Positions 17,900-61,963 of a DNA stretch of 64,000 bases are shown one piece after another; the first letter of the stretch is position 1, and every line of letters begins with the position of its first letter. The position numbers and the translations under genes are program-made. The notes under the pieces were generated by a model. That model searched no databases. It was not told the DNA's origin and was given only the letters and a program-made list of their open reading frames with translations. The stretch is taken from contig CAXXHO010000005.1 in NCBI GenBank assembly GCA_963667725.2, positions 384,001-448,000 of the forward strand, read 5' to 3'. This stretch comes from Treponemataceae bacterium (GTDB lineage Bacteria > Spirochaetota > Spirochaetia > Treponematales > Rectinemataceae).

Positions 17900-17932
17900 G
17901 GACGCTTCGCGCAAGTATACTTGAAATTATAC

Positions 17933-17961
17933 TTGACAATAGACGTAAGTAAATGTACTAT
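17933..17961 (+). promoter_or_regulatory. Sigma70-type promoter of vapBC cassette
   Basis: TTGACA-17-TACTAT. Confidence 0.7.
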
Positions 17962-17982
17962 TCATAGCATAGGAGAATGCTT

Positions 17983-18213
17983 ATGCCGCAAATATCACTC
18001 TATATCGATGAAAAGACCTTGAAGAAGGTAGAAAATGTCGCGAAGCGACAACATACATCAATCTCAAAATGGGTTGCTGAGCAGATTCGATCTCGAGTTG
18101 AACCAGCATATCCTGTAAATTTTGAAGCGCTCTTTGGATCTATTACTGATGATACTTTTGTTGAACCTAAAGAAATATCCTTTAGTTCTGATTTAGCAAG
18201 GGAAGAAATGTAA
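17983..18213 (+). CDS. vapB: Antitoxin (RHH-type, VapB)
   Basis: MPQISLYIDE..SISKWV; overlaps toxin start. Confidence 0.75.
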   Translation: MPQISLYIDEKTLKKVENVAKRQHTSISKWVAEQIRSRVEPAYPVNFEALFGSITDDTFVEPKEISFSSDLAREEM

Positions 18214-18611
18214 TGTATTATTTAGACACAAATACATGCATTTACTTTCTAAATGGAAAGTATGAATCTGTAAAGACAAAGATTCTCACAACACTTCCAA
18301 ATGAAATAGCAATTCCATCAATTGTGAAAGCAGAATTACTTCTTGGAGCTTATAAGAGTAAAAACAGAAAAAGTAATATTGAGAAAATTGAAAAGTTTTT
18401 AGAACCATTTGAGATAGTAGCATTTGATGACGTAATGGCTTATACGTATGCAGATATTAGGTATAAAACAGAAAAGATTGGAGAGAATGTTGGGCCTAAC
18501 GATCTTTTTATAGCGGCAATTGTAAAATTTCATGAAGGTACATTGGTAACGAATAATGATAAAGAGTTTAGCAGAATTGAAGGATTGAAAATAGAAAACT
18601 GGGTAAAATAA
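18213..18611 (+). CDS. vapC: PIN-domain toxin
   Basis: YYLDTNTCI, AELLLGA, GPNDLFIAA, LVTNN.KEFSRI.GLKIENW. Confidence 0.9.
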   Translation: MYYLDTNTCIYFLNGKYESVKTKILTTLPNEIAIPSIVKAELLLGAYKSKNRKSNIEKIEKFLEPFEIVAFDDVMAYTYADIRYKTEKIGENVGPNDLFIAAIVKFHEGTLVTNNDKEFSRIEGLKIENWVK

Positions 18612-18615
18612 TTTC

Positions 18616-20452
18616 GCATAACAACCGTTTCAACCTTATAACGCTCTTAGTCACCTGAATTCCCAGTAAATTGTAGCTAGGCGACGACCGGCAATTCAAT
18701 GTTTAAGAGCTCCAAGATTTCTCGCTGTGGCTTTGTTATCTCGGTAAGTATCTGACCATATTTTCCTGCATAACGAATCTTAGTAAGCGGATCCATTTCA
18801 AGCAACAATTCCTGAACTGTATATTTTTCAATGAGTTTTGACTGTCGCATTTCTCTTCGTAAAGCACTTGTAAAAATGAGCGCTATGAATTGTATAAAGA
18901 GCCTGCCGTCGACAGTTTCTATCGTGTGCATACGAAGGCGTTTCATGTCCAGGCTATTCTTCAGATCGTCGAAACATTTCTCCACGATATCTTTGTCACG
19001 ATATACTTGGAGTGCCTCATCGGGATCTTTAAAGCGCGTCGTGAAAATCGCCTGAAACCCCGCATAACGTTTGATATACTGACTTACCGCGTCGTTGTTG
19101 TACGAAACCTTCATCCCCCGCACCGGCGTCGTCGTGATGATAAAAAAGGTCTCGTACTGTTCTTTGTTCTCGGCCTTTGGTTTTCCTGACTCCAGCTCTT
19201 CCTTGTAGGTTATGAGTTCTCTATTAAACCGATCGATTGCATGAGCTCTCATCTGGGCGTTGTAGTAAAGGTGCAGATAACAACGTCGCCGATCTTCTCC
19301 CCAGGGATGGAGCATTGAGTGAACATACAGTACCTCATCGTCGATCATCCTGTAGTGTTCAGGCCCCTGAATCGTATCGTAGATCTCGTCTATGGCTTTC
19401 TGAATCCATAGATTATTCAAAGGAACCGAAAGAGTGAAATGGTCTTTTCGCTCTAAAAGTTCATCAACGTTCTTCTTGCTGTAGAACCCTTTATCAAGCA
19501 CATAGTGCAGATTCTTGATAGCTAGTTTCTTAAAGGTCGCTAGAAGATTGTGTACCGTTTGCACATCAGTGATATTGCCAGGAATCCTGTGATAGTACAC
19601 TGGTAGTTTGCTCTTCTGACCGAAGAGCATGGCCAAATTAAGCTGGGGAAGCTTCTCCTTATCTCTGTTGTGTCCCCAGCGGATGTAGTCATTGAACGCA
19701 CTGTAGGATGAAATGCTCGTGATATCGTAGCAGAGATATTCATCCTCAAGAATTTTATCCATCCAGGATGACAAAAACGATTGCTTTGCTCCTGTCGATA
19801 TGGATCCAAGAATCTCGCTTATCCTCTGGCTTGTAAGTGGCTTTGTTGCTGGATGTTCATGGGTTTTGGTCCACGATTCGCATTGGCTTAAGGGCCCTCC
19901 CTGGCAGGCAAGGTAATAAACCATAGTAAGAATTTGTGCAGAGCATTCAGGGAATGCCGCTTTTAAAAGCCTCGCGACTCCCAGCCGCTTGGATATTTCA
20001 TCGAGAATTAACGAAGGTCCAACGATAGTTGCTGTCGCCGTACCGATAGATTCGTTATCTTGTATAGCACTCTGCGTTATGCGCTTTGATGGAATAAATG
20101 CTCCGGTTGTTGGATCAATTTTGCCAATACAGACTTGCGTACTGCGTGCCTGTTGTTTTTCTTTGTCCCAACGAGATACCGATTCATAGACATACGTCAC
20201 GCCGGTTTTCTTATTGAGATGATGTATACGATAGGGCATTAAGCTGATCCTGCATTCATAGCTGTAATTGTAGCTATGTTTGCTTATTCTGTCAATGCTT
20301 ATTCGCATATATCTAATAGATTTATTCAATCCCTAGCTACAATTTTCCGGGAAATTAGGTAGTCATGGTTTGTGCAGAACAACAATGCACAAACCACGCC
20401 AATCCCTCGCTTTGCTCGGGAACGAGCGTTAAAGGTTAAGCCAATGTTATGC
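18616..20452 (+). repeat. attC (inverted) split by IS1634-family element B
   Basis: GCATAAC arm 18616-18653 and GTTATGC arm 20360-20452. Confidence 0.85.
18654..20359 (-). mobile_element. IS1634-family element B (transposase 18677-20239)
   Basis: 28-bp imperfect IRs CCT..TTCCC.G.AAATTGTAGCTAGG; 6-bp TSD TAGTCA; YDITSISSYS, PGNITDV, DKGFYS, VEKCFDDLKN. Confidence 0.9.
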
Positions 20453-20518
20453 GGACTCGCGCATTCGCGCGAGCTAAGTTATTATAATAGAAGTATATAA
20501 AAAAGTATAATGTTGTTC

Positions 20519-20547
20519 TTGACATTACACATACTAATGTGTAAATT
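20519..20547 (+). promoter_or_regulatory. Promoter with palindromic operator
   Basis: TTGACA-17-TAAATT overlapping TTACACAT-acta-ATGTGTAA. Confidence 0.65.
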
Positions 20548-20567
20548 ATTGACATAAGGAGGACATT

Positions 20568-20765
20568 ATGGCTACAAACCTCGCTATAGATGATAGATTG
20601 CTCACGAAAGCACTTGAAATTGGCGGTTATAAATCAAAAAAGGACACTGTTAATGCTGCACTTGATGAATTTATCAAAAGAAGAAAAGCAAAAGAGCTAA
20701 TAGATATTTTTGGTACAATAGAATATGACGCTTCTTATGATTACAAGAAAATGAGATCAAGATGA
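20568..20765 (+). CDS. vapB: VapB antitoxin (DUF2191-like)
   Basis: MATNLAIDDRLL..KKDTVNAALDEFI. Confidence 0.85.
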   Translation: MATNLAIDDRLLTKALEIGGYKSKKDTVNAALDEFIKRRKAKELIDIFGTIEYDASYDYKKMRSR

Positions 20766-21175
20766 AACGAGTATTAGTAGATACTTCGGTATGGTCTCTT
20801 GCACTAAGAAAAAAGGAAAGAACTGAGGAAGAACAAAAGATAGTAAGTCATCTATCAAAATTGATAAGTAATCTTACTGTTGTTCTTATAGGTCCAATAC
20901 GACAAGAAATTTTATCAGGAATCTCAACGAAAGAACGATTTGAAGCACTTAAAGAAAGGATATCAATATTTGAAGATCATACGATACATACCCATGATTA
21001 TGAACTTGCTGCAGAATACTTTAATGAGTGTAGAAAGCATGGTATACAAGGATCTCATATAGATTACCTCATATGCTCTGTTGCCTCAAATAATGACATG
21101 TCAATATTTACATTAGATAATGATTTTCAGCTGTATAAAAAGCATATAAGAATAAAGTTAGAGAAATACGCATAA
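20762..21175 (+). CDS. vapC: PIN-domain toxin
   Basis: VLVDTSVWS, IRQEILSG, IDYLICS, TLDNDF. Confidence 0.88.
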   Translation: MKRVLVDTSVWSLALRKKERTEEEQKIVSHLSKLISNLTVVLIGPIRQEILSGISTKERFEALKERISIFEDHTIHTHDYELAAEYFNECRKHGIQGSHIDYLICSVASNNDMSIFTLDNDFQLYKKHIRIKLEKYA

Positions 21176-21294
21176 CAAAAGCTTCAACCCTATAACGCCT
21201 TTTGTAATGGTTTTTGCAGAACAACAATGCAAAAACCACGCCAATCCTTCGCTTCGCTCAGGAACAGGCGTTAAGGGTTAAGCCAATGTTAGAT
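21170..21294 (+). repeat. attC (inverted, intact)
   Basis: GCATAAC...GTTAGAT, 125 bp. Confidence 0.9.
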
Positions 21295-21417
21295 CTATTG
21301 AATAACAAACTCCGAGTAGATTTTGATGCTTTGGTATATAAAATTAGATTCTAATTGTACAATAATAGTAAACAAGTAACAACATGATATGCTTTGTACG
21401 TAAAAAAAGAGTGTAAC

Positions 21418-21924
21418 ATGAAGGCTAAAATACTTACCGTTGTTATTATTTTTGCATTTGTTTTTTCTGTATTTTCGCAAGAACAACAATCTTTAGAAGA
21501 ATACTTCAACAGTGAAATTATAAAAGTTAGTTATCCCTTCGGAAGTGGGGTTTCATTAAATGTTAATGGTACAACATCAACAATTGGTTGGAGGTTGTCT
21601 CCAGTAATTTCTAATATGCTGAATCAGTACCCAACAAGTAAAGTATCATTTGAACAATATAAAAAAGAAAACAGAACTGGAAATGTATTATTATGGAGTG
21701 GCTTAGGTGGGATGATGGCTAGCACTCTGGTGTTTTCATATAAGAATAGTGATGTAACTGGTAATATTAATTTTAGTGATCCAGTAAATGTTGTATCTTT
21801 TTCAGGAATATTTATTGGATCAATAATTGAAGTTGTAGGCGCATTTATTATGAGTTCAGGATATGAAGACTTATTCAATTCAATTAATCAGTACAATTTA
21901 GAAAAGATTAAGGAATATAAATAA
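21418..21924 (+). CDS. Hypothetical exported/membrane protein
   Basis: Signal peptide plus two hydrophobic segments; fills a cassette. Confidence 0.7.
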   Translation: MKAKILTVVIIFAFVFSVFSQEQQSLEEYFNSEIIKVSYPFGSGVSLNVNGTTSTIGWRLSPVISNMLNQYPTSKVSFEQYKKENRTGNVLLWSGLGGMMASTLVFSYKNSDVTGNINFSDPVNVVSFSGIFIGSIIEVVGAFIMSSGYEDLFNSINQYNLEKIKEYK

Positions 21925-21935
21925 AGCATATTAAG

Positions 21936-22027
21936 ATCTAACATCTGCTTCGACCCTATAACGCCCTTTGTCATGGTTTGTGCAGAACAACAATGCACAA
22001 ACCACGCCAATTCTTCGCTTCGCTCAG
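21936..22027 (+). repeat. attC (inverted) truncated by IS1634
   Basis: ATCTAAC...TTCGCTTCGCTCAG then IS end. Confidence 0.85.
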
Positions 22028-23950
22028 CTGACGTTGTACAGCGTGTGGTATAATACAGTAAGCAATAAAGCAGCTTAATATATTATACTGACAACAAATA
22101 ACTAAAAACGGACTGTACAAAAAGCATGATGCAAATGCGGTATAAGATATTTATAAATATTCGAAATAAAACTTTACAGATAAAACACTATGTTGTATAA
22201 TTAGCGGTATAATGAACGTACGGAAATGTACCCTAAAGAATGCTCAAGGCGGTACCTATACGTACCTTCAACTTGTGCACAACTACCGCGTCAAGGAAAC
22301 AGGAAAGACCAAAACCAATGTCCTTATGAAGCTCGGACGGGAAGATCAGATCGAGCCTTCCTACATCCAGGCGATCATCAAGGCACTGTCTGCGGTCTTA
22401 GGCGAATATCCTTCTGAAGTCCCCGCCGGATTTGACTTCCATTCAAGTCGGGAGCTTGGGGGCACCTGGCTTCTAGATGCCCTATGGAATCGTCTTGGCA
22501 TGGCAAAGGCTATCAAAGGGCTTCTTAACGAACGCCAGTTCGCCACACCCGTCGAACGGCTCTGCTTTGCCATGGTTGCAGGCAGGATCCTGGCTCCGGG
22601 TTCGAAGCTTTCTCTTGAACACTGGGTTTCAAAGAAAGCATATATCAGGGATCTTGTGAACGTCGATGTTCACAATCTTTACCGGGCGATGGATCTTCTT
22701 GTGGAGTCGAGCGAAGAACTCCAGAAGCACATATTTACCGAAGTATCAAAGAATGCCCACCTTGATGTGGATCTTATCTTTCTTGATACGACGAACACCT
22801 ATTTCGAGACCGACGAAGATGCTTCCGGTTCAGGGCTTTTAAAACGTGGCCACAGTAAAGATGGACACCCCGAGCTACCGTTGGTTTCGATTGCCTTTGC
22901 GGTGACGCGTAGCGGCATTCCTATTCGCTGCTGGGTATTCCCGGGCAACACGAGCGACCAGACGATCGTCGAGCAGGTGAAAGGTGATCTAGGACAGTGG
23001 AATCTTGGTCATGTCGTCATGGTCCAAGATGCAGGATTCAATAGTGCCGACAACAGAAGAATCCTTTTACGGGAATGCGGTGACTATATCATCGGCGAAA
23101 AGCTCCGCGTTGGTACCGATGGCGCCGCGGTAGAAGCCCTACACCGGAAAGGGCGATTCAGGATCCTGGAAAGTGGCCTCGCGATTAAAGATGTCGTCCT
23201 CGATGCAGGGAAAGCCACGGAGCGCCGATTCATCATCGTCAAGAATCCGGAAGCCGAAACGCGCGACCATGTCATACGCGAACAAATCGTCGATGCTACG
23301 AAGCGCAAGCTTGATGAACTGTCGCAGTATACGGGGAAAGCACACACGAAAGCGGCGTGTGCGCTACGCTCTCATTCCGCCTATGGCAGATACATTAGGC
23401 AGGATACGAAGGGTGTCTTGCACCTCGACACCGCCAAGATAGCCTCAGAGGAACTCCTTGATGGCAAGTTTCTAGTGTCGACGTCCAGCATGAAGCTGGA
23501 TGCTGCCGATATTGTTGCCGGCTATAAGCAGCTCTGGGCCATAGAGCGGGTATTCAAGGATATGAAAAACACCTTGGATATTCGTCCCATATACCACCGA
23601 CTTGATGATCGTATTCGAAGCCATATTCTTATTTGCTGGCTTGCCATGGTGCTGGTACGGTATGCAGAGAATATGGCGGACCGGTCGTGGTACCAGATTG
23701 AAAAAGTTCTGTCCGATGTTACTGCAGGGCTTATTGAGAGCGACAATGTAAGCCTCTGGTATTGCTCTGATATTTCCGACGAGGCGAAGGACATTTTCAA
23801 GCGCTTAACTATTGAATTACCAAAGAAAGTTCTTGCTACAGTAGCAAGAGATCCTGTTGCGGTATAAAAGATTTTCGACTGCAATCGTATAACTCTATTA
23901 TTTATAGAGTATTAGCAAGATTTTCTATACCGCGCACTGTACAACGCCAG
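22028..23950 (+). mobile_element. IS1634-family element A, copy 2 (transposase 22212-23867)
   Basis: Same IRs and protein as copy 1; no TSD. Confidence 0.92.
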
Positions 23951-23991
23951 TTGTCTGTAAAAGAATTCACAATGAAAGCGTTAAGTATCAT
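23951..23991 (-). pseudogene. PhzF-like cassette gene, 5' stub
   Basis: GGAG RBS, MILNAFIVNSFTD then IS end. Confidence 0.4.
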
Positions 23992-24043
23992 AAACTCCAA
24001 TACCTTTTCATATTTTCATTACATTAGGGCGCCGAAGGCGTCT

Positions 24044-24159
24044 ACCTAACATTGGCTTAACCTTTAAATCCGTGCCCGAAGGGCTTAGCGTGGTTTGTGC
24101 ATTGTTGTTCTTGCACAAACCATGACAAAGGATTTATAAGGTTGAAGCAGTTGTTCGAT
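24044..24159 (-). repeat. attC
   Basis: ACCTAAC...GTTCGAT. Confidence 0.9.
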
Positions 24160-24164
24160 GCTTC

Positions 24165-24503
24165 TTATCTTATTATTACTTCTATTTTTTCTATTACTTC
24201 TTCCATTTTTTTGTCTCCAATTTTTTCTATAAATTCTATATTTCTTTCTCTCCAATCTAAACTCTTTATCTGATCACTTAATACAGAGCCTTTTATCTTT
24301 TTTAACTCTAACTCAACTTCAAATGGATATCCCTTTACCTTACTTGTAATTGGGCAAAATAATGCTAATCCAATTTTCTCATTATATGCTTTAAATGATA
24401 ATGTGAGTGCTGGTCTTCTTCCCCTTTGTTCATGGCCCAATTGTGGGTTGAAGTCCAACCAAACAATGTCTCCTCTCTCAGGAATATAGCTTTTACTTAC
24501 CAT
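24165..24503 (-). CDS. mazF: MazF endoribonuclease toxin
   Basis: YIPERGDIVWLDFNPQLGHEQRGRRPAL, CPITSKVKGYPFEV, DQIKSLDW. Confidence 0.93.
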   Translation of the reverse strand: MVSKSYIPERGDIVWLDFNPQLGHEQRGRRPALTLSFKAYNEKIGLALFCPITSKVKGYPFEVELELKKIKGSVLSDQIKSLDWRERNIEFIEKIGDKKMEEVIEKIEVIIR

Positions 24504-24730
24504 TCTTCTTTTCCTATTGAAGATCCAGTATCAACAAAGGCATGCAGATTTTCTTCTTTTACTTGAGAAAGAAGTGATTCAAGCGTCGTTTTCTTTGGAA
24601 GAATAACAAGCTTTCCACCATCTTCCAATATTTCTACTGAGCTTCCACCCTTAAGATCAAATTCTTTCACATACAGCGAAGGAATACGTATACCAAGGCT
24701 ATTACCCCATTTTTGAACAACTGTTTTCAT
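24497..24730 (-). CDS. mazE: MazE antitoxin
   Basis: QKWGNSLGIRIP AbrB motif; GGAGG RBS. Confidence 0.9.
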   Translation of the reverse strand: MKTVVQKWGNSLGIRIPSLYVKEFDLKGGSSVEILEDGGKLVILPKKTTLESLLSQVKEENLHAFVDTGSSIGKEEW

Positions 24731-24748
24731 AAGAACCTCCACAATAAT

Positions 24749-24777
24749 AGTATACACATTGTATATCTATTTGTCAA
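24749..24777 (-). promoter_or_regulatory. Promoter of mazEF cassette
   Basis: TTGACA-17-TATACT. Confidence 0.75.
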
Positions 24778-24816
24778 GTATACATTGTATATACTATTTG
24801 GGCGCCGAAGGCGTCC

Positions 24817-24931
24817 ATCGAACATTCGTTTAACCTTTAAATCCGTGCCCGAAGGGCTTGGCGCGTTTTGTGCATTGTTGTTCTGCACAAAACGTGCCAA
24901 AGGATTTATAAGGTTGAAACGGTTGTTCGAT
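24817..24931 (-). repeat. attC
   Basis: ATCGAAC...GTTCGAT. Confidence 0.9.
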
Positions 24932-24989
24932 GTCTTCTTTTTGTTATATTTAAATAATTAATATTTATAATTATCTATCACCCTTCAAT

Positions 24990-25412
24990 TTACTTATTTC
25001 TTATTGCAATTGGATGATCTTTATTCAGCTGTAAAAGGTCCCACAAGTTTCCATAAAGATCTTCAAATACAGCTACCATTCCATAATCTGCTTTTTTAGG
25101 CTCTCTAATAAACTTAATTCCCTCTTTTATCATATTTTTATAATCTCTCCAAAAATCATCGGTATTAAGAAATAAAAACACTCTTCCACCGGTTTGATTT
25201 CCAATAAATGGTTCTTGTTCTGACTTAGATGCTTTAGCAAGTAATATGGTAGTTCCAGAACCTCCAGGAGGAGCAATAACTACCCATCGTTTATTCTGTT
25301 CAGGCTGATATGTGTCTTCAATGAGAACAAAATTTAGTTTCTTTATATAGAAATTAAGTGCCTCATCATAATCTTTTACAACGAGTGCTATATGTACAAT
25401 TGATTGTTTCAT
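24990..25412 (-). CDS. VOC/glyoxalase-family protein
   Basis: HIALVVKDYDEA, GNQTGGRVFLFL, VFEDLYGNLWDL. Confidence 0.9.
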   Translation of the reverse strand: MKQSIVHIALVVKDYDEALNFYIKKLNFVLIEDTYQPEQNKRWVVIAPPGGSGTTILLAKASKSEQEPFIGNQTGGRVFLFLNTDDFWRDYKNMIKEGIKFIREPKKADYGMVAVFEDLYGNLWDLLQLNKDHPIAIRNK

Positions 25413-25496
25413 AGTCCACCAATGTTAAATGTAAATATCAATAGCTTCTACAAATAGAACGTATGCATTTTTAAATTTTTTGCGCCGAAGGCGTCC

Positions 25497-25623
25497 ATCG
25501 AACATTCGTTTAACCTTTAAACCACATTCCTGAGCGAAGCGAGGGATTGGCACGTGTTTTTGCATGAGATTTCATGCAAAAACCGTGACAACGTGGTTTA
25601 TAAGGTTGAAACGGTTGTTATAA
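25497..25623 (-). repeat. attC of the recombinase cassette
   Basis: ATCGAAC...GTTATAA; covarying stem AAACCAC/GTGGTTT. Confidence 0.9.
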
Positions 25624-25686
25624 GTCTTCCTTTCTATACTATGTATCGTATAATCACAATATTTCTGCATTTTAAAAGGAATAAAT

Positions 25687-26571: not shown

Positions 26572-26590
26572 CATTCTGCCCGAAGGGTCC

Positions 26591-26714: not shown

Positions 26715-26777
26715 TTCTTCATTTCTAATATAATATGTTCATTATTTCTATACTAATTATCATTTTATATGTTTTTA

Positions 26778-53635: not shown

Positions 53636-53694
53636 ATACTATAGTATAACTATGGTATAACATTTTGTCAATATTGATTCGGTTTTTTGAATCC

Positions 53695-53819
53695 TGCTAA
53701 CATTGGCTTAACCCTTAACGCCTGCTCCTGAGCGAAGCGAAGGATTGGCGTGGTTTTTGCGTCATCTTCTCGCAAAAACCATGACAAAAGGCGTTATAGG
53801 GTTGAAGCATTTGTTATGC
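53695..53819 (-). repeat. attC
   Basis: TGCTAAC...GTTATGC. Confidence 0.9.
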
Positions 53820-53850
53820 GAATTTTTGTTGTATTAACTATATTACTTTA

Positions 53851-54564
53851 GGGGCTGTACTAGATAAAATCAGATGTTATACTTAAATAGTGATCATAAG
53901 TCATTGCAGGTTAATGAAAAGAACACAAGAAAGACTCCTCGAATTTTTTGTGCTAGAAGTAACTGCTAGATCTGCTGCAAATATACTAGGAATTCATCCT
54001 AATTCTGCAGCTCTTTTCTATCGGAAAATTCGTCAAGTTATTGCCTTCTATTTAGCCCTGGAAGCAGCAGAAGTATTCAATGGCGAAGTAGAAATCGATG
54101 AAAGCTACTTCGGTGGAGTTCGCAAAGGGAAACGAGGCCGAGGCGCTGCTGGGAAAGTAGTCGTCTTTGGCATGTTAAAGCGCCATGGCAAGGTTTTCAC
54201 CGTTGTTGTGGAGAATACCAAGACAAAGACCCTAATGAACGAAATTGCCCGTAAAATCAAGCCAGATAGTGTTGTCTATTCTGATGCCTATCACAGTTAC
54301 GATGCATTGGATGTTAGTGAATTCCATCATCATCGAATAAATCATTCAGATGTATTTGTTGATGAAAAGAATCACATCAACGGAATAGAAAACTTCTGGA
54401 ACCAGGCCAAGAGAGTCTTAAGAAAGTACAATGGAATAGACAAGAAATATTTCTATCTGTTCCTGAAAGAATGTGAGTTCCGATTCAACTATGGAACACC
54501 AAAGAATCAACTTAAAATTCTTAGAAAATGGTGCTCAATCTAGACTTTTATCTAGTACAGCCCC
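53851..54564 (+). mobile_element. IS1595-family (IS1016-like) element, intact (transposase 53890-54543)
   Basis: IRs; 8-bp TSD TTACTTTA; EIDESYFGG, HINGIENFW. Confidence 0.93.
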
Positions 54565-55759
54565 TTACTTTATAATCTTCTGGTTTTAAATTAATGCATG
54601 GTATTCTATTCCAACCTTGATCACATATTTTTATTATTGAGTTGAAGAAGTACTCGCTTATTAATGACTGTGCACAATCCTTAGGTCTAGAATAATCATA
54701 TCTATTCCATTGGCCAGATATTACCTTATCTGCTGCATTCCTCATTCTAGAAAGAACAGAATTAGCCGCTTGTTGTTTTGGTACTTTATTTTCAAGATAA
54801 TATGCAGCAGCATTCTTTGCCCCATTCCATATAATTGAATATATTTGTGATATTGGAAAGTTATTAATAATATCTTTAAAAAAGGCTTCTGTCTCTTTCC
54901 CTACAGTATAATCAAATTCATAGGCATTCATTCTATACATTAATAGATCAATACATTCCCAATATATAATTTCTTTCCATAATAAAAGAGCTTCATCAGT
55001 ATATATTTCATCCCAAGTACCTGGATTTAGTAATTCTGAAATTATTTTATCATTATCTTTCTCTTCTGAAAGTATATTTGGATATAAACCAACATTCTTC
55101 CAGTTAAAGCTAAAAGAGTCTTTTTCATAATCAGGCGTAAAATCATTCACCATTGATTTTGGATGTATTTTAATTATATCATTATAGAATAGCTCTCTAA
55201 AGGCTATATGTAGATAATCATCTGTGGGGAACATTTTCCCACTAAATTCGCCTAGAGGAGATATTCGCTCAAATTCTTTATCAATCCCAGCTCTAAGGAA
55301 GACACCAAGAAATACTTTCTGCTTAAATGTCAATATTTTTATATCAACTGGATCATATATCTCTAAATCGATTTTACTTCGTAGAAAATTTATTTTCCTA
55401 TCCATTTCTATTTTTTGCATTCTTTTCTCTTCTTCGACGCACCTTGTACACCTACAGGCTGGAGAGTCTTCATGTCCACAAGATGGACAAAATGCATTTT
55501 CATCGACATCAAATCTAGATTTATCCCGTTTTGATCGATACTTAACGAGATTAATTCCACAATACATACATTTTATATCGATTGTTTCTGGAGGGAAAAT
55601 ATAATGTAATTCAGATAAAGCTATTCCTTTAAGATCATATGATTCTTGTAGTTGCTTCATAGAAACATTTTCTTCATAATATAGATGCATTATTCTTTCA
55701 ATTTGTTCTTCTGATATTCCTTTTACTTTCTCAAGGACTTTATCTCGATACGTATTCAT
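54548..55759 (-). CDS. Hypothetical Zn-finger protein (last codons replaced by IS1595)
   Basis: CMYC, CPSC, CRCTRC; pre-insertion end DYKVI-stop. Confidence 0.75.
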   Translation of the reverse strand: MNTYRDKVLEKVKGISEEQIERIMHLYYEENVSMKQLQESYDLKGIALSELHYIFPPETIDIKCMYCGINLVKYRSKRDKSRFDVDENAFCPSCGHEDSPACRCTRCVEEEKRMQKIEMDRKINFLRSKIDLEIYDPVDIKILTFKQKVFLGVFLRAGIDKEFERISPLGEFSGKMFPTDDYLHIAFRELFYNDIIKIHPKSMVNDFTPDYEKDSFSFNWKNVGLYPNILSEEKDNDKIISELLNPGTWDEIYTDEALLLWKEIIYWECIDLLMYRMNAYEFDYTVGKETEAFFKDIINNFPISQIYSIIWNGAKNAAAYYLENKVPKQQAANSVLSRMRNAADKVISGQWNRYDYSRPKDCAQSLISEYFFNSIIKICDQGWNRIPCINLKPEDYKVRGCTR

Positions 55760-55800
55760 TGAAATCCTCTATGGAATTACTGAGCGCGCGAAGCGCGTCC

Positions 55801-55925
55801 ACATAACATTGGCTTAACCTTTAAAGCCTGGCCCGAGCTAATGCGAGGGATTGGCGCGCTTTTTGCATTGTTGTTCTGCAAAAAGCGTGACAAAAGGCTT
55901 TATAAGGTTGAAGCATGTGTTAGGA
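55801..55925 (-). repeat. attC
   Basis: ACATAAC...GTTAGGA. Confidence 0.9.
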
Positions 55926-57212
55926 AGTTACTATTTCATCAATTATTTCTTTTTCACTATCTATTTTATCATAATCGCATTTAAATACTTCTTTATAAGC
56001 ATCTTTAAATTCTTTTGTATCTCGAAATAATTCAAATAGTGGCCATTCATGATAAAATATCTGTGGAAGTTCGTCTGTATTACCTATTTTTCTCATTATT
56101 TTACTACTCAATACCCAATCTTTTTGAAGAACAGCTTTAGCAAGTAAAAACTTATCAGAACAATCAGACCAATCAAGTTTGTCTATCTGCTTCTTAACTT
56201 CTTCATCTTTATTTAATAAATAATATGTGATTATATTATTAATTGAAACAATCATGTCTTCAATTCTATTAAGCTTACTGTAGATTTTTAAATACTTAAT
56301 GAGATTCCTAACAATATTATAGTTTTTATATTCTAGGTTATCATATATATAAGTTATTAATAGGTTTTTACCAATTTCAATATTTTCAGGATGTAATTTT
56401 TTTATAATAAATGATGTAATTTTACCTGCTATTTCGATAAGTACAAAAACACTATCGTAAAAATAATCAGGATCGGTATACAATTCATCACCAATATTTG
56501 GACACTGCTTAAATGTAAATCCCTCTTGAATACAAGTATTTATATATTGACTACTTACAATACCATTAGTATGTACATATAAATTTCTTCTTTCTGTCAA
56601 CTCAACAAATTTTGATATTAGCTCTTTATCATCTTTTATTGAACCGTTAATTTTTTTCGATATCCATTCTAATTGCTTAATATGGCTACCACGCATTACT
56701 GCATCAATTTCTTCATTTATTATTGCACTTTGATATTCTTCTATTGTTTTATATTTGATGAGCTCAGTATATGATATCTGCTTACATGAATCATTTAGCA
56801 AATTAGGTTTTAATGTTAGCATATATTTAATTGTATCTGAAATATACTTATCAAATTGACTTACAAGAGTAACAATTACACTCTTGTTAATTATACTGAA
56901 CGCTCTATCATACTTGTCTTCATTATCTTGTAATATTTTGAACTTTTTTAAATATACTAAAGGTACCGCAAATTGCATACCATTTTCATTCTCTTTAATA
57001 TCGGTACATTTTTCTTTAATAAACTTTATCATATCTTTATGTGATTTTTGATGTTTTTCAGTAATTGTCATTATCGTTATAGGTAATACATCTCTTAAAG
57101 TAATTGCATTATCTAAATATGTAGATAATATTGTGCTATACCCATTAATTGGACTGTCTGATTCTTTATTAGATTTCTCTTCTGGAACTTCTATACATTC
57201 TGCATTATCCAA
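55920..57212 (-). CDS. HEPN-domain protein (putative)
   Basis: RNLYVH = Rx4H in helical context. Confidence 0.6.
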   Translation of the reverse strand: MDNAECIEVPEEKSNKESDSPINGYSTILSTYLDNAITLRDVLPITIMTITEKHQKSHKDMIKFIKEKCTDIKENENGMQFAVPLVYLKKFKILQDNEDKYDRAFSIINKSVIVTLVSQFDKYISDTIKYMLTLKPNLLNDSCKQISYTELIKYKTIEEYQSAIINEEIDAVMRGSHIKQLEWISKKINGSIKDDKELISKFVELTERRNLYVHTNGIVSSQYINTCIQEGFTFKQCPNIGDELYTDPDYFYDSVFVLIEIAGKITSFIIKKLHPENIEIGKNLLITYIYDNLEYKNYNIVRNLIKYLKIYSKLNRIEDMIVSINNIITYYLLNKDEEVKKQIDKLDWSDCSDKFLLAKAVLQKDWVLSSKIMRKIGNTDELPQIFYHEWPLFELFRDTKEFKDAYKEVFKCDYDKIDSEKEIIDEIVTS

Positions 57213-57228
57213 TTTTTCCTCCTAATCT

Positions 57229-57354
57229 TCCTAACATTGGCTTAAGCTGGGAGCTTCGACCGCGAAGCGGTTGGCGCGCTTTTTGCATGAGAGAGCGCAG
57301 CGATCTGCAAAAAGCGTGACAAAGAAGCGACTCAGCTTGAAGCATTTGTTAGAA
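57229..57354 (-). repeat. attC variant
   Basis: TCCTAAC..AAGCTG/CAGCTT..GTTAGAA. Confidence 0.88.
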
Positions 57355-57360
57355 ATCTTC

Positions 57361-57783
57361 CTATTTCATATTTAGTAATACTATCCCACTCATACACAAT
57401 ACTATTCCTGCTATCTTCTTAATGTTTATCTTCTCTTTAAATAGTATCATTCCTATGATTACTAATAATATTGTTATCAGTGATGATACTAATGCTGATG
57501 AATAGCTAAGGTTTCCTCCTGCTCTATATAGTAAAAGATACCCTAACTCTATTCCTATAATTGGAATGGCAAGTAAAACGGTATATACATTAACATTTTT
57601 AATCTCATTTGATAATGATCCATGTAATGGAATAAATAAAAAGAGCACTGATGATAGTAATATTGCAGCAATGTATGAACAAATAATGCTTAATATTGGG
57701 TTTATACTTGGACTAATTAATTTCTGGAATACCTGATAAAAGACTCCAGAGCAAACGATTAACACAATTGAAGCTATATACAT
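57361..57783 (-). CDS. EamA/DMT-family small transporter
   Basis: GIELGYLLLYRAG, LFKEKI...IAGIVLC. Confidence 0.82.
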   Translation of the reverse strand: MYIASIVLIVCSGVFYQVFQKLISPSINPILSIICSYIAAILLSSVLFLFIPLHGSLSNEIKNVNVYTVLLAIPIIGIELGYLLLYRAGGNLSYSSALVSSLITILLVIIGMILFKEKINIKKIAGIVLCMSGIVLLNMK

Positions 57784-57951
57784 ATCTCCAATCCTTAGAC
57801 TTATCTTAGAGAATGGTTGAATTTGTTTTTAAACATTGCATAGTAGCTAAGACTCAAAGACTATATATTATTCTCTATAATTCAATTACTTAAATCTCAT
57901 TACAGTAGAACTTTTTTTGTGTTTATTTTTTCTTCCTGCGCGGGAGCGCCT

Positions 57952-58075
57952 TTCTAACATTGGCTTAACCTTCAAATCCGTGCCTGAGCTACTGCGAAGG
58001 CTTGGCGTGGTTTTTGCGTGATCTTCTCGCAAAAACCATGACAAAGGATTTATAAGGTTGAAGCGGTTGTTCGAT
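57952..58075 (-). repeat. attC
   Basis: TTCTAAC...GTTCGAT. Confidence 0.9.
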
Positions 58076-58085
58076 GGCATCTATT

Positions 58086-58895
58086 TTACATATTACCAGA
58101 AATAAGTTGATTATATAATAGGCTTGGATGTTTTTGTAGCAATTGACTTTTTTCCAAACTAATAACTTCTTTATCTGAAAGTTGTTTACTAACTAATATG
58201 CTCTCGCCATTTTCTTTCCTAGTTTTAACTAAAATAATATTTCCTATTTGGATAGCTGCTTCATTTTGTGTACCTAATGCTGATATTACAAGAGCTAAAC
58301 CTTCCATATTCATTTTATTTGCTTCTGCTTCTACTTTTGTTATTTTCTCAAGCTCTATTGCTTTTTCAACTTTTTCCAAACGTTCTTTTACTTCTTTTTT
58401 ACTAAGAATATCTTTTGTTCTTAATATTATTTTCTTAAACCAAGATCCATGTTCTACTGGAAATTCTACTGCACTATTAAATCCATTTTTATTTAAGTAC
58501 TTAATTATTGTATCAAATATTTTATCAACATTATCACTCTTTTCTTCAAAATAGACTCGAACTGGTATATATCTATTCAAAGAAATTTCATCAAGATTTA
58601 CTCCTAATGATAATGCAAACATATACTGTTCAATACATTCGATAATATACTTATTTTTTTCAATTTTTTTATTTAAGCTATTTTTTTGAATCTCAAGATT
58701 ATCCTTAAATATCTCTTCTATTTCATTGTTATATTTTCTTTTTTGTACACTTGGCATACTAAGTACTTTAACATAATTATTCTCTATTTGTTCATATTTA
58801 TCTTTAGTTAATTTCATTTCATTTTCAAGGAATAGGGTCATAATCGTTTTTTCTAGTAATGCTATTCTATCTTCCAAATTTGTATTCATGCTCAT
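58086..58895 (-). CDS. Hypothetical protein
   Basis: 269-aa ORF filling a cassette. Confidence 0.75.
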   Translation of the reverse strand: MSMNTNLEDRIALLEKTIMTLFLENEMKLTKDKYEQIENNYVKVLSMPSVQKRKYNNEIEEIFKDNLEIQKNSLNKKIEKNKYIIECIEQYMFALSLGVNLDEISLNRYIPVRVYFEEKSDNVDKIFDTIIKYLNKNGFNSAVEFPVEHGSWFKKIILRTKDILSKKEVKERLEKVEKAIELEKITKVEAEANKMNMEGLALVISALGTQNEAAIQIGNIILVKTRKENGESILVSKQLSDKEVISLEKSQLLQKHPSLLYNQLISGNM

Positions 58896-58944
58896 TTTCC
58901 TTTCTAATTATATTGTAGTTGTAGAAACTTTTAGCAACTCGTCC

Positions 58945-59069
58945 ATCGAACATTGGCTTAACCTTTAACGCTCGTTCCCGAGCGAAGCGAGGGATTGGCG
59001 TGGTTTGTGCATAGGATTTCTACACAAACCATGACAAAGAGCGGTATAAGGTTGAAGCTTTTGTTGGAA
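58945..59069 (-). repeat. attC
   Basis: ATCGAAC...GTTGGAA. Confidence 0.9.
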
Positions 59070-59168
59070 GTCTCTTCTTCTCTATTCTCTTCATAATATC
59101 TTTTCTTTTATAATGAATTTTTTCTTCTATAATATTCATCTCTTTACCTAATATCTTATTATCTTTCT

Positions 59169-59462
59169 TTATATGAATAGTCTTTCATAGCCATCATATG
59201 CTTCTAATTCAACAATATCATAGGTAATCAAACACTCTTTCACTAAGGGAAATGTATCAAGAATTTCTTTAACTTTTATTGAATCTTTTGCTTCTATAAT
59301 TAAAATTGCTTCTCTTGTATTCTTAGTAAACCAAATATTTCTAATAACACTCTTTTTCTGTAGATCCCAGAGGACTTTTGCTTCTTGCTTAAGTATTTGC
59401 TCTTGTTCTTTCCAGTTAACATTAGGTTTATCGTGAGTAATAACAAGATTCACCAAAGCCAT
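59169..59462 (-). CDS. Muconolactone-isomerase-like protein
   Basis: EAKVLWDLQ, FPLVKE, Y.GYERLF. Confidence 0.6.
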   Translation of the reverse strand: MALVNLVITHDKPNVNWKEQEQILKQEAKVLWDLQKKSVIRNIWFTKNTREAILIIEAKDSIKVKEILDTFPLVKECLITYDIVELEAYDGYERLFI

Positions 59463-59547
59463 TATCTCCTTTCAAGCGTTTGATTCTTAATGTTTACACT
59501 TTTTTGCTATAGACTATTACTATTTAAAATGCTGCGCGCTAGCGTCC

Positions 59548-59655
59548 TTCCAACATTGGCTTGACCCGCGAGGCGTTAAACTGGCGCGCTTTTTGCCTTG
59601 TTGTTCTTGCAAAAAGCGTGACAGTAGCCGAGTCGGGTCGAAGCAGGTGTTAGAA
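59548..59655 (-). repeat. attC, short variant
   Basis: TTCCAAC..GACCCG/CGGGTC..GTTAGAA. Confidence 0.85.
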
Positions 59656-60192
59656 TTCTTCTACCTTCTTCAATAATGCTTCTGCTTCTCTTGGTTTCTT
59701 TAATACTATAAACTCTTTAATCTTGAATGGATTCTCTTTCAACATTAATGTATACTGTTCTTTACGTTTCTTATATGTATTCCATGCCCAGAACACAATT
59801 GCATCTTTAGCTAAAAAGGAATTCTTAAATGTCTCTCTATTTCCTGACCAAAGCTCTTCTTGTGTAATCATTCTTGATATTGTTCTTTTAAAAACTCTCC
59901 ACATTACAATAAATCTACTGTAATCAAGCCATATAACTGTATCTACATTCCCCCAGGTTAAATCTTTTACTTTATTATAGTTCCCATGTATTACATATCC
60001 TTTCTCATTCTGTATAGCATTTTTAATCTTTTCTCGAAATTCCTCTTGTTCCGATTGAACCCAATTCTCTTTCCAGAAAAGTGCATCTAGTTCTATGTCT
60101 TTAATCTTCAATACTTTACTTAAATTTCTAGCGAGTGTTGTTTTACCAGATCCACTCGTACCAACAACAAGAATCTTTGATGTAGAATCCAC
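59650..60192 (-). CDS. Adenylate-kinase-like P-loop protein
   Basis: GTSGSGKTT, ELDALFW, GNY, WLDY. Confidence 0.85.
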   Translation of the reverse strand: MDSTSKILVVGTSGSGKTTLARNLSKVLKIKDIELDALFWKENWVQSEQEEFREKIKNAIQNEKGYVIHGNYNKVKDLTWGNVDTVIWLDYSRFIVMWRVFKRTISRMITQEELWSGNRETFKNSFLAKDAIVFWAWNTYKKRKEQYTLMLKENPFKIKEFIVLKKPREAEALLKKVEEF

Positions 60193-60229
60193 TTTTTATC
60201 TTTCCTTATCTTCCTGCGCGGGAGCGCCA

Positions 60230-60354
60230 TTCTAACATTGGCTTAACCCTTAACGCCTGTTCCTGAGCGAAGCGAGGGATTGGCGTGGTTTTTGCGTGAT
60301 CTTCTCGCAAAAACCATGACAAAAGGCGTTATAGGGTTGAAGCAGTTGTTAGGC
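60230..60354 (-). repeat. attC
   Basis: TTCTAAC...GTTAGGC. Confidence 0.9.
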
Positions 60355-60364
60355 GTATATTTTT

Positions 60365-60856
60365 CTATATGTTTTTCTCCATATAAACTATTCCTAAATC
60401 TTTACCAAATTTTTTCCAACATTTCTTTAATCTTCCATATTCACTAAATCCGTTTCTCTCATGAAATTTTAAGCTATTTTTATTATCATCAGTTATATCA
60501 ACTATTATTTTGCTAATTCCAATATTTTTTGCATCATTTTCTAATTGCTGTAACGCTCTTTTCCCTATGCTTTTCCCAATATATTCTTTCTTAATAAAAT
60601 ACATTGCTTCTGCTGTTTTCTTAAATGGCTTTATATTCTTAAACGCTTCTAATGTACAAAAACCAACCAATTCTCCTCCATCGACAGTAATTGCATATCC
60701 CGAATAAACATCATTCTTATCTATGATTTTATCGAAATGATTATAATCTACAATGTCCTCACGAAAGGCCGCTGTTGTTGTTTTTATATAATAATTCAAT
60801 ATATCAATCACGCTTTGCCGATGTTTCTCTTCTAATGGTTCAAATACAATATTCAT
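60365..60856 (-). CDS. GNAT acetyltransferase (PAT-like)
   Basis: ILNYYI, GKSIGK, SLKFHERNGF. Confidence 0.85.
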   Translation of the reverse strand: MNIVFEPLEEKHRQSVIDILNYYIKTTTAAFREDIVDYNHFDKIIDKNDVYSGYAITVDGGELVGFCTLEAFKNIKPFKKTAEAMYFIKKEYIGKSIGKRALQQLENDAKNIGISKIIVDITDDNKNSLKFHERNGFSEYGRLKKCWKKFGKDLGIVYMEKNI

Positions 60857-60958
60857 AATAAAATCCCCTGATTATACTGCTTCTATATCCACATAGCCCG
60901 TCAGGTTAACATTTTTAACTATAACTTTAACATGTATCATTTTGCGCCGATGGCGTCC

Positions 60959-61083
60959 GCCTAACATTGGCTTAACTCTTAACGCCTGCTCCTGAGCGAA
61001 GCGAAGGATTGGCGTGGTTTGTGCATTGTTGTTCTGCACAAACCATGACAAAGGGCGTTATAGGGTTGAAGCAGGTGTTAGGT
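60959..61083 (-). repeat. attC
   Basis: GCCTAAC...GTTAGGT. Confidence 0.9.
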
Positions 61084-61092
61084 GCTAATATT

Positions 61093-61908
61093 TTAGATAT
61101 CATCAAAATACATAAAGCTTCTTATTTCTTTTAAACATACCTTTTTAACTTCTTTATCTTTTTTCGCTTCTGAATAAAAGTAGCATGTTTTAAGGTACTC
61201 ATGATAATTCTTATACGTATGCTTTTCTATACCTACATCATGCTTAAAGCATTCAATTAACTTTTTTATATGTTCTACTATAAAGCTACTCTTACTCCCT
61301 TTATATGAAAATATTGCTTTACAAAGTCGTTCTTCTTCTCGATATACAAAATATTCTTTCGTTTGAGTAATAATTTTTATTATTAGTAATGATATACTGT
61401 TTTTATCTTTTTCAGAAACATTTTTTGATCGTAGTAACTCAAGAAAGACATCGGCACAATGAGCTATGCTATGTATCCATCCATACTTTGATGAATAACC
61501 AGCATAAACCTTTTCATTTTCAAGATAACTCTTGAGACTACTAAGAACAAATCTCAATTCATTTTTTGTAAGAAAACTACTTTTATTATCATATTCTACA
61601 ATAGCTGCAATAATGAGCCAAGAAAACGTCCTTTTAACTGCATACTTTAGCAAATTGCTATCTATATTAAAATAAATAAAATTATCTGATAACAAAATCT
61701 TTAATACTTCATGTAATGCTTTTTTACTAATATATCCATTTAGAATCCAAGTACAAAAAACTACATAAACAAGTTCATCTCGTATTTTTTGATCAACAAT
61801 TCCAAGATCACTTATGTTATTTATTAAGAATGAATCATATTCATCATCATTCAATATGAAGCTATGATTGAGAATTGACTCATATATTTTCTGTTTACGA
61901 TTACTCAT
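61093..61908 (-). CDS. DUF2785-family protein
   Basis: IRDELVY, KRTFS.L, GWIHSIAHCAD, EEERL. Confidence 0.78.
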   Translation of the reverse strand: MSNRKQKIYESILNHSFILNDDEYDSFLINNISDLGIVDQKIRDELVYVVFCTWILNGYISKKALHEVLKILLSDNFIYFNIDSNLLKYAVKRTFSWLIIAAIVEYDNKSSFLTKNELRFVLSSLKSYLENEKVYAGYSSKYGWIHSIAHCADVFLELLRSKNVSEKDKNSISLLIIKIITQTKEYFVYREEERLCKAIFSYKGSKSSFIVEHIKKLIECFKHDVGIEKHTYKNYHEYLKTCYFYSEAKKDKEVKKVCLKEIRSFMYFDDI

Positions 61909-61963
61909 TTACAGGCCTTAACTCATTCTCTCAAATAGACTACTAATTTCGCCCGTAGGGTCC

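What the first reader, a model, noticed from the sequence alone, without database searches (positions are those of the whole stretch)
17900..61963. Covarying mini-hairpin leader and linked trailer outside the attC core: a cassette-building module?
Seen: about 20 cassettes begin with a hairpin at fixed spacing (bottom strand G-stem-loop-stem-TC-N-R box). Stems differ but always pair: CGCC-GAA-GGCG (24029, 24802, 25482, 27208, 34309, 44598, 51370), CCC-GWA-GGG (26578, 33508, 37205, 61951), CGCGC-GAA-GCGCG (30923, 55785), CTCGCGC/GCGCGAG (31627, 20453). A TTCCTGCGCGGGAGCG variant occurs in four GTTAGAA cassettes. More than half of these cassettes also have TCTY one base beyond the other R box, which I did not see in hairpin-less ones. 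Inference: trailer-attC-leader is inherited as one unit in the circle, relevant to the open question of cassette genesis, or it is a priming or recognition signal.
Basis: partly seen in the sequence, partly recalled or inferred. Interest (0 to 1): 0.78.

Follow-up and report, generated by a model that had tools for sequence, protein, structure and literature searches.

The report
Extra flipped-out base beside integron sites
The small hairpin at the start of many mobile gene cassettes is one of two ways these cassettes hold a single thymine bulged out of the DNA just outside the known recombination site, which points to a part of the site that current models leave out.

Summary
The hairpins are real (23 of 41 sites in the window; 137 of 208 cassettes in the genome). 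The invariant element is a T nine bases 5' of the bottom-strand cut (199 of 208). In hairpin cassettes the base before the hairpin covaries with the base after this T (273 of 276 pair; G-C, C-G, T-A), so the T is bulged. Hairpin-less cassettes build the same bulge by pairing leader with their own trailer in the excised circle (38 and 35 of 41; chance level with the array neighbour). The T mirrors, across the site's dyad, the known extrahelical T beside the L box. Best reading (0.6): an extra integrase-read feature of folded attC, which the hairpin supplies in any context. The TCTY link holds here but is not shown in four other genomes, and attC bodies swap between near-identical cassettes, so one inherited trailer-attC-leader module is not supported. 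The hairpin occurs in other spirochaete-type arrays, an archaeal bin and clinical resistance cassettes; the bulge alone occurs in unrelated integrons. Not found in the papers searched or in earlier scan notes. No experiment supports a function yet.

The parts
15900..64000 (-). Distal part of a chromosomal integron cassette array (cassette genes mostly on -, attC bottom strand on +; an inverted piece at about 17.9-21.3 kb); intI and attI lie outside the window at G000:C5:550883-551794
17900..17912 (-). Leader hairpin G-CGC-GAA-GCG-[T]-C-C; bulged T at 17902
20453..20474 (-). Leader hairpin G-CTCGCGC-GAAT-GCGCGAG-[T]-C-C; T at 20455
24029..24043 (+). Leader hairpin G-CGCC-GAA-GGCG-[T]-C-T; T at 24041
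24802..24816 (+). Leader hairpin CGCC/GAA; T at 24814
25482..25496 (+). Leader hairpin CGCC/GAA; T at 25494
26578..26590 (+). Leader hairpin CCC/GAA; T at 26588
27208..27222 (+). Leader hairpin CGCC/GAA; T at 27220
30181..30194 (+). Leader hairpin CGC/GGGA; T at 30192
30923..30939 (+). Leader hairpin CGCGC/GAA; T at 30937
31627..31647 (+). Leader hairpin CTCGCGC/TTT; T at 31645
33508..33520 (+). Leader hairpin CCC/GTA; T at 33518
34310..34324 (+). Leader hairpin CGCC/GAA; T at 34322
37205..37217 (+). Leader hairpin CCC/GAA; T at 37215
37836..37849 (+). Leader hairpin CGC/GGGA; T at 37847
44598..44612 (+). Leader hairpin CGCC/GAA; T at 44610
48279..48291 (+). Leader hairpin CGC/GTA; T at 48289
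51370..51384 (+). Leader hairpin CGCC/GAA; T at 51382
55784..55800 (+). Leader hairpin CGCGC/GAA; T at 55798
57938..57951 (+). Leader hairpin CGC/GGGA; C instead of T at 57949
59534..59547 (+). Leader hairpin CGC/GCTA; T at 59545
60216..60229 (+). Leader hairpin CGC/GGGA; C instead of T at 60227
60944..60958 (+). Leader hairpin CGCC/GAT; T at 60956
61951..61963 (+). Leader hairpin CCC/GTA; T at 61961
15911..15915 (+). Hairpin-less leader, T at 15913 (own trailer not parsed)
21295..21299 (-). Hairpin-less leader, T at 21297 (own trailer not parsed)
28344..28348 (+). Hairpin-less leader, T at 28346; pairs in the circle with trailer from 27345 (2 bp, bulge, 2 bp)
29307..29311 (+). Hairpin-less leader, T at 29309; trailer from 28474 (2 bp, bulge, 3 bp)
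38794..38798 (+). Hairpin-less leader, T at 38796; trailer from 37999 (2, bulge, 3)
39661..39665 (+). Hairpin-less leader, T at 39663; trailer from 38924 (2, bulge, 1)
43039..43043 (+). Hairpin-less leader, T at 43041; trailer from 39789 across an IS, assignment less sure (2, bulge, 1)
43760..43764 (+). Hairpin-less leader, T at 43762; trailer from 43193 (2, bulge, 1)
45294..45298 (+). Hairpin-less leader, T at 45296; trailer from 44735 (2, bulge, 3)
47362..47366 (+). Hairpin-less leader, T at 47364; trailer from 46715 (2, bulge, 2)
50489..50493 (+). Hairpin-less leader of a 163-bp gene-less cassette, T at 50491; trailer from 50345 (2, bulge, 2)
52074..52078 (+). Hairpin-less leader, T at 52076; trailer from 51510 does not follow the rule (1 bp only)
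52930..52934 (+). Hairpin-less leader, T at 52932; trailer from 52219 (2, bulge, 2)
53690..53694 (+). Hairpin-less leader, T at 53692; trailer from 53060 (2, bulge, 2)
57224..57228 (+). Hairpin-less leader, T at 57226; trailer from 55926 (2, bulge, 3)
58940..58944 (+). Hairpin-less leader, T at 58942; trailer from 58076 (2, bulge, 1)
62853..62857 (+). Hairpin-less leader, T at 62855; trailer from 62089 (2, bulge, 2)
63942..63946 (+). Hairpin-less leader, T at 63944; trailer from 62975 (2, bulge, 2)
44613..44734 (+). Example attC core (R' to R''), bottom strand: L box with extrahelical G, then 6 bp, then the canonical extrahelical T; GNA mini-hairpins in the side arm and apex

Best explanation
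The folded bottom strand of these attC sites is longer than the textbook site. Beyond the 7-bp R box the helix goes on for two more pairs, then one T is bulged out, then at least two more pairs follow. This outer T lies 8 paired bases 5' of the cut, the same distance as the canonical extrahelical T from the matching point of the L box, so it sits where the T pocket of the integrase monomer on the R box would meet it. Shown from sequence: two classes of cassette build this geometry. Hairpin-less cassettes pair leader with their own trailer, which works only in the excised circle. Hairpin cassettes pair one base with the trailer and get the rest in cis from a C(GN1-3A)G DNA mini-hairpin stacked under the R stem, which works beside any neighbour. 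Inferred, not shown: IntI reads this T; the contact tunes synapsis, or switches the R-box monomer off after the single strand exchange; the stable mini-hairpin also helps the strand fold against SSB.
For: T at -3 in 199 of 208 cassettes, C in 8, A in 1. Circle stem exactly 8 bp in 126 of 137 hairpin cassettes and exactly 9 bp in 57 of 67 hairpin-less ones; with the array neighbour only 6 of 134 and 4 of 64 reach these lengths. In 41 distinct hairpin-less cassettes, with the T bulged, -4:+3 pairs in 38 (18.6 shuffled) and -5:+4 in 35 (20.1), then chance (10 vs 8.4); neighbour control 13 and 20 of 40 (14.2, 21.8). The base before the hairpin pairs with -2 in 273 of 276 distinct cassettes of five genomes (shuffle mean 225, max 236), in 110 of 111 sites picked without asking for that pair, with G-C 13, C-G 5, T-A 3 among 22 distinct leaders; the G-T register pairs in only 12 of 22. 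Canonical G and T bulges 6 bp apart in 120 of 123 bodies give the mirror geometry. Loops are G...A in 125 of 137 and closed by C-G in 136 of 137; GNA/GNNA mini-hairpins lie in 149 of 186 attC bodies on the bottom strand and 5 on the top; such loops are far more stable in DNA than RNA and bind SSB poorly (PMC13037366, passages). Replicated in G041, G042, G044, G002 and G030, G501 (T in 36 of 36). In 113 cassettes of other integron lineages, 80 pair at -1 and -2; of these 55 have G at -3 (51 pair straight on) and 21 have T (2 pair with A, 18 of the other 19 show the bulge register).
Against: No experiment. In the VchIntIA structure, binding of the canonical T in cis disorganises the catalytic site (PMC2727003, PMC3053210, passages), so the same contact on the cutting monomer could inhibit the very integration step that selection should favour. 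The pocket is only partly kept: H241 is invariant, H240 is Y, H or F, and P232 is absent from six of eight aligned integrases, including the one serving this array. The outer pairs are thermodynamically marginal without protein or coaxial stacking (P paired 0.15 for -2 in hairpin cassettes, 0.55 for -4 in hairpin-less circles). Most cassettes of other lineages use an unbroken stem, and synthetic attC sites without this feature recombine with IntI1 (PMC7439510, passages), so the T cannot be universally required.
Confidence: 0.6

Rival explanations
1. The hairpin is a single-strand signal for a host protein other than the integrase core: a priming or SSB-exclusion signal on the excised single-stranded circle, or a fork-like junction read by the extra N-terminal domain of these integrases.
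For: The same loop types act at G4 and ssiA priming sites and N4 promoters and exclude SSB (PMC13037366, passages). Hairpin cassettes sit with integrases that have an extra N-terminal domain in G000, G041, G042, G030, G501 and four more loci; among metagenome loci, the one domain-bearing locus with readable cassettes had a hairpin and none of 23 domain-less loci did.
Against: Hairpin-less cassettes are just as often multi-copy (12 of 46 families vs 22 of 106) and rebuild the same bulge, which a priming role does not need. Hairpin cassettes are found in class 1 and 3 integrons. The co-occurrence with the domain is confounded by kinship, and the domain had no Pfam or atlas family here.
Confidence: 0.17
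2. The ends are scars or modules of cassette genesis: new genes are joined to a pre-made trailer-attC-leader piece, or the ends are copied from each other, and the pairing is a by-product.
For: Leaders recur on unrelated genes and across phyla. Hairpin type is weakly linked to R heptamer and trailer in some genomes. TCTY is class-linked in this genome. Fifteen leaders in G000 and two in G002 hold a second, decayed GTT...GA leader about 44 bases downstream, so leaders do get added to existing cassettes.
Against: attC bodies swap independently of ends. Copying would not skip exactly one T, nor give compensatory changes across the bulge in two different scaffolds. TCTY does not replicate.
Confidence: 0.15
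3. The hairpin works in RNA: a 5' stabiliser, processing mark or translation element at the start of cassette transcripts.
For: It lies upstream of ribosome-binding sites in many cassettes; hairpin leaders are slightly longer (median 71.5 vs 50 bases to ATG, p=0.049).
Against: On the sense strand the loops read U(N)C, while the G...A rule is on the bottom strand and fits DNA mini-hairpins, including non-GNRA tetraloops. It also heads gene-less and reverse-gene cassettes. No Rfam match. It does not explain the leader-trailer pairing of the other class.
Confidence: 0.08

Closest known systems
Integron attC site with R box, L box, extrahelical bases, unpaired spacer and variable terminal structure (Bouvier 2009 PMC2727003; Nivina 2016 PMC5027507; Nivina 2020 PMC7439510)
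   Same: RYYYAAC/GTTRRRY boxes, G and T bulges 6 bp apart beside the L box, folded bottom strand, cassette array with intI and attI.
   Different: In the passages read, extrahelical bases lie only on the R''-L'' arm near the L box and the site ends at the 7-bp R boxes. Here a further bulged T lies outside the R box on the R' arm, held by a cis hairpin or by leader-trailer pairing.
Treponema-type chromosomal integrons (Wu 2013 PMC3607928; Tansirichaiya 2016 PMC4909258)
   Same: intI transcribed towards attI and the array; 7-bp complementarity of R' and R'' of one cassette (51 of 58 in PMC4909258).
   Different: The passages read stop at the 7-bp core; no leader hairpin, longer stem or outer T is mentioned. 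Supplementary tables S3 and S4 of PMC4909258 were not opened and may show flanking bases.
DNA mini-hairpins d(GCGNAGC)/d(GCGNNAGC) at G4 and ssiA priming sites and N4 vRNAP promoters (review PMC13037366)
   Same: Short GC stem, C-G closing pair, G...A loop, single-stranded DNA context.
   Different: Here fixed to a recombination box, with a bulged T and an alternative hairpin-free scaffold; no primase or polymerase link tested.

Membership tests
Integron attC/cassette array | R'' and R' boxes with AAC/GTT, L boxes, bottom-strand hairpin | tested here: met
   (fold z-score -7.5)
Integron attC/cassette array | Extrahelical G in the L box and T six pairs further | tested here: met
   120 of 123 bodies in G000
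Integron attC/cassette array | Integron integrase and attI at the head of the array | tested here: met
   C5:550883-551794, best PDB match VchIntIA E=4e-77, attI-like junction downstream of intI
Integron attC/cassette array | Integrase-catalysed excision and integration, circular intermediates | not testable with these tools
   Only indirect: R boxes match within cassettes, not with neighbours; read laying gave no test
Canonical attC extrahelical bases | Located on the R''-L'' arm beside the L box | tested here: not met
   The outer T is on the R' arm outside the R box; it is a mirror counterpart, not one of the described two or three
Canonical attC extrahelical bases | Bound in an integrase pocket (P232, H240, H241 for the T) | tested here: inconclusive
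   H241 kept, H240 variable, P232 mostly changed; binding not testable
GNA/GNNA DNA mini-hairpin | G...A loop closed by C-G on a short GC stem | tested here: met
   125 of 137 loops, 136 of 137 closing pairs
GNA/GNNA DNA mini-hairpin | High melting point, nuclease and SSB resistance | not testable with these tools
   needs bench measurement
Single-strand initiation (priming) signal | Primer synthesis at or beside the hairpin; needed for second-strand synthesis | not testable with these tools
   67 of 208 cassettes lack the hairpin, against a requirement
Curated RNA element | Match to an Rfam family | tested here: not met
   0 matches at gathering scores in the window
Dispersed REP-like repeat | Copies spread between genes across the genome | tested here: not met
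   152 of 194 relaxed-pattern hits lie directly before an R box; the other 42 are scattered single hits, those printed having short stems

The most novel reading that the evidence does not exclude
attC has a fourth structural determinant outside its accepted boundary: an outer T read by the R-box integrase monomer, mirroring the L-side T, that makes the one-strand exchange directional or sets which sites are active. It occurs across integron lineages in a circle-only form, and one large cassette pool has invented a cis mini-hairpin that makes it context-independent, possibly read together with an extra N-terminal integrase domain. Cassette ends would then encode whether a site is active in the array or only in the circle, and any route of cassette genesis must build this 11-pair, one-bulge junction.
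Probability: 0.35. Interest if true: 0.88.

Novelty: new variant of a known kind. Interest (0 to 1): 0.74.

Why it matters
attC recognition is described as resting on three unpaired features inside the R boxes, and site models and predictions stop there. A conserved bulge outside the R box, reached by two independent scaffolds, shows selection on about 4-5 more bases at each cassette end. It gives a precise target for standard recombination assays, a possible reason why some cassettes excise more readily than others, a constraint on how new cassettes are built, and a sequence tag for the origin of clinical cassettes (aacA1:gcuG and aphA16 carry the hairpin).

Tried and rejected
Pairing of TCTY with the leader, or of the two single-stranded arms with each other: chance level in G000, one position raised in the other genomes (43 vs 31.6 of 183) and none after it. 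G-T wobble closing of the hairpin: rejected for the bulge register. Mirror hairpin at the trailer end: 1 of 135 and 0 of 203 at any offset. Link of class or hairpin type to attC body type: none. Trend of hairpin share along the C5 array: none clear. Rfam: none. Phage collection: no match; viral contigs: 2 hits, one leader-like. Sequencing runs: no RNA holder listed; laying reads gave no test of circles, since the raw run did not cover the stretch and contig joints follow the repeats. The N-terminal integrase domain got no Pfam or atlas family. Literature: ten searches and passages of 14 papers showed no description of the leader hairpin or outer T; most subscription papers, including older core-site papers and the 2006 structure paper, are not in the library, so absence from print is not proven. 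Dropped rows: distinct sets leave out paralogues, intervals of 1700-1800 bases or more and cassettes whose R boxes mismatch; 4 of 208 cassettes with imperfect hairpins were kept out of both classes.


Full report
Setting. The window is G000:C5:384001-448000, the distal part of a cassette array of about 150 kb. Its integrase gene lies at C5:550883-551794, in the same direction as the cassettes, with an attI-like junction after it; contigs C1 and C7 hold two more integrases and arrays. The best solved relative is VchIntIA. For most sites the window + strand is the attC bottom strand, the strand that integrases recombine as a folded single strand. The spirochaete label rests on this arrangement, on named relatives and on earlier scan notes, not on a name for this genome. 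Numbering below: -1, -2... are bottom-strand bases 5' of the RYYYAAC heptamer (leader side); +1, +2... are bases 3' of GTTRRRY (trailer side).

Observation. Of 41 R' ends in the window, 23 carry the hairpin and 18 do not. Genome-wide, 137 of 208 cassette intervals carry it, against 4 expected after shuffling the last 24 leader bases. It is tied to one register: offset 3 in 89 of 135 distinct cassettes here and 183 of 203 in four other genomes, far fewer at other offsets, and almost none at the trailer end. TCTY is class-linked in this genome and follows the cassette's own trailer, not its neighbour's, but it was not reproduced in G041, G042 or G044 and was borderline in G002.

What is conserved. 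Closing each cassette into its circle showed two sharp classes: the R stem is exactly 8 bp in 126 of 137 hairpin cassettes and exactly 9 bp in 57 of 67 hairpin-less ones, while pairing with the array neighbour mostly stops at 3-6 bp. Both classes have T at -3 (199 of 208). In hairpin-less cassettes the stem resumes once that T is bulged: -4:+3 pairs in 38 of 41 and -5:+4 in 35 of 41 distinct cassettes (18.6 and 20.1 after shuffling), with all four pair types at both positions, then falls to chance; the neighbour control is at chance. In hairpin cassettes the base 5' of the stem covaries with -2: 273 of 276 pair, 110 of 111 when sites are picked only by loop and register, with G-C, C-G and T-A among 22 distinct leaders and no shuffle of 500 reaching the score (this control ignores kinship). 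The G-T register does worse. So both classes give the same local shape: two pairs beyond the heptamer, a bulged T, two or more pairs. One class uses the trailer, the other a hairpin in cis.

Geometry. In the same sites the canonical G and T bulges lie 6 bp apart (120 of 123 bodies). Counting from the L-box point that mirrors the cut, the canonical T follows 8 paired bases; the outer T follows 8 bases from the real cut. It is therefore the dyad mate of the canonical T. In the VchIntIA complex that T sits between H240, H241 and P232 of the monomer bound in cis and disorganises its active site (PMC3053210 and PMC2727003, passages; the structure paper itself was not read). That an R-box monomer reads the outer T is inference. 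The integrase of this array keeps W219 and H241, has Y for H240 and lacks P232; the C1 and C7 enzymes keep the proline.

Strand and molecule. Loops start with G and end with A on the bottom strand in 125 of 137 hairpins and are closed by C-G in 136; the attC bodies carry such mini-hairpins on the bottom strand in 149 of 186 cases and on the top in 5. These loops are much more stable in DNA than RNA and resist SSB (PMC13037366, passages). Folding programs form the hairpin but give the pairs around the bulge low to middling probability, so they likely need stacking or protein.

Range. The same rule holds in G041 (116 of 124 distinct cassettes with hairpin), G042 (47 of 51), G044 (9 of 10) and G002 (20 of 31; 9 of 11 hairpin-less ones with 9-bp stems), and in G030 and G501, whose attC bodies are mostly 58 bases (T in 36 of 36, hairpin in 33). 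The leader precedes unrelated attC bodies and attI-like sites, so it travels with the cassette. In other lineages (113 distinct cassettes, 32 loci: a Gemmatirosa plasmid, a sample of genomes from one other class, metagenome contigs) no hairpin at this register was seen, but extended stems are common: of 80 that pair at -1 and -2, 55 have G at -3 and mostly pair straight on, and 21 have T, of which 18 show the bulge register, 16 of them by a G-C pair (no shuffle control was run on this set). Clinical cassettes aacA1:gcuG and aphA16 carry the hairpin; aacA1:gcuG was independently assigned a spirochaete origin from its attC body (PMC8352920, passages).

Near-identical cassettes often differ in attC body, and hairpin type is unlinked to body type, so the three parts do not move as one block. 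Ends do show weak haplotype linkage in some genomes, and 17 leaders contain a second decayed leader, so reuse of end modules stays possible. The stronger point for genesis is a constraint: a new cassette must end up with ends that complete an 11-pair, one-bulge junction, and a hairpin leader cuts that demand from four trailer-matched bases to one.

N-terminal domain. An earlier scan note called the extra domain of these integrases HARP-like (e1-7898699). I confirmed the domain and its presence beside hairpin arrays but not the name. The trailer-paired bulge occurs with integrases lacking the domain (8 of 23 such loci, two of them the same array), so the domain is not needed for the T; it may relate to the hairpin, but kinship confounds this.

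What is known. Passages of Bouvier 2009, Nivina 2016 and 2020, Larouche and Roy 2011, Loot 2017, Vorobevskaia 2024, Ghaly 2021 and 2022, Wu 2013, Tansirichaiya 2016, Weinberg 2017, a 2022 review and a 2026 paper on attI-type cassettes describe attC as ending at 7-bp R boxes, or do not touch the point; the 7-bp match within a cassette is known. I saw passages found by keyword, not whole texts, and no supplements. Ten searches found no account of the hairpin or outer T. Earlier scan notes hold no look-alike sequence and no note with all the search words; e1-2984452 describes a different hairpin at the gene-end side of cassettes.

Verdict. Observation confirmed and sharpened; a new variant of attC with a probable extra recognition feature. 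The structure is well supported by covariation and by controls; its function is untested. Interest 0.74.

Noticed in passing
window 25687-26571 (+): A cassette carries a 294-aa tyrosine recombinase with an integron-type N-terminal SAM domain, opposite to cassette direction; recombinases of 295-298 aa with the same split match pattern occur in G002, G041 and G042, in G042 at the edge of the array.
   Followed up: no
window leaders ending at 51384 and 60958; G000:C5 451534-533471; G002: Fifteen hairpin leaders in G000 and two in G002 continue with a conserved 25-base box ending in AAT and a second, decayed GTT...N-GA leader about 44 bases downstream; it may be a cassette-borne acceptor site, a promoter or a collapsed attC.
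   Followed up: partly
window 16036-17691, 22212-23867, 34445-36100, 40422-42077, 48514-50169: A 551-aa DDE transposase element in five copies; several insert inside attC bodies near the side arm, others lie elsewhere in the genome.
   Followed up: partly
window about 17.9-21.9 kb: An inverted piece of the array (attC ends on the - strand) between IS copies, with a second DDE element at 18677-20329 splitting an attC.
   Followed up: no
window 50338-50500; G000:C5 496054-543662: A 162-165-bp gene-less cassette in twelve copies with several different attC bodies.
   Followed up: partly
L209, L210, L212, L213, L214, L216: aacA1:gcuG, aphA16 and an unnamed ORF cassette in class 1 and 3 integrons carry the leader hairpin and outer T; catB3, blaGES-24, aadA2 and aadB have unbroken 12-13-bp circle stems.
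   Followed up: partly
L215:3500-3580: A leader hairpin and short attC lie beside msr(D) on an Aliarcobacter plasmid with no integrase annotated in the stretch shown.
   Followed up: no
L161 (Gemmatirosa plasmid 1): An unannotated array of 36 attC sites; trailer position +3 is C in the cassettes listed, pairing with G at -3 or, after a bulged T, at -4.
   Followed up: partly
G044 (archaeal bin named Methanofastidiosum), contigs C85, C117, C139, C185: Arrays of the same attC family with hairpin leaders, but no integrase over the family cut-off in this bin; binning error is not excluded.
   Followed up: partly
G000:C1 34405-35739, C5 550877-552295, C7 36700-37992: Three integron integrases in one genome, each with an extra N-terminal domain of about 70 aa.
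   Followed up: partly
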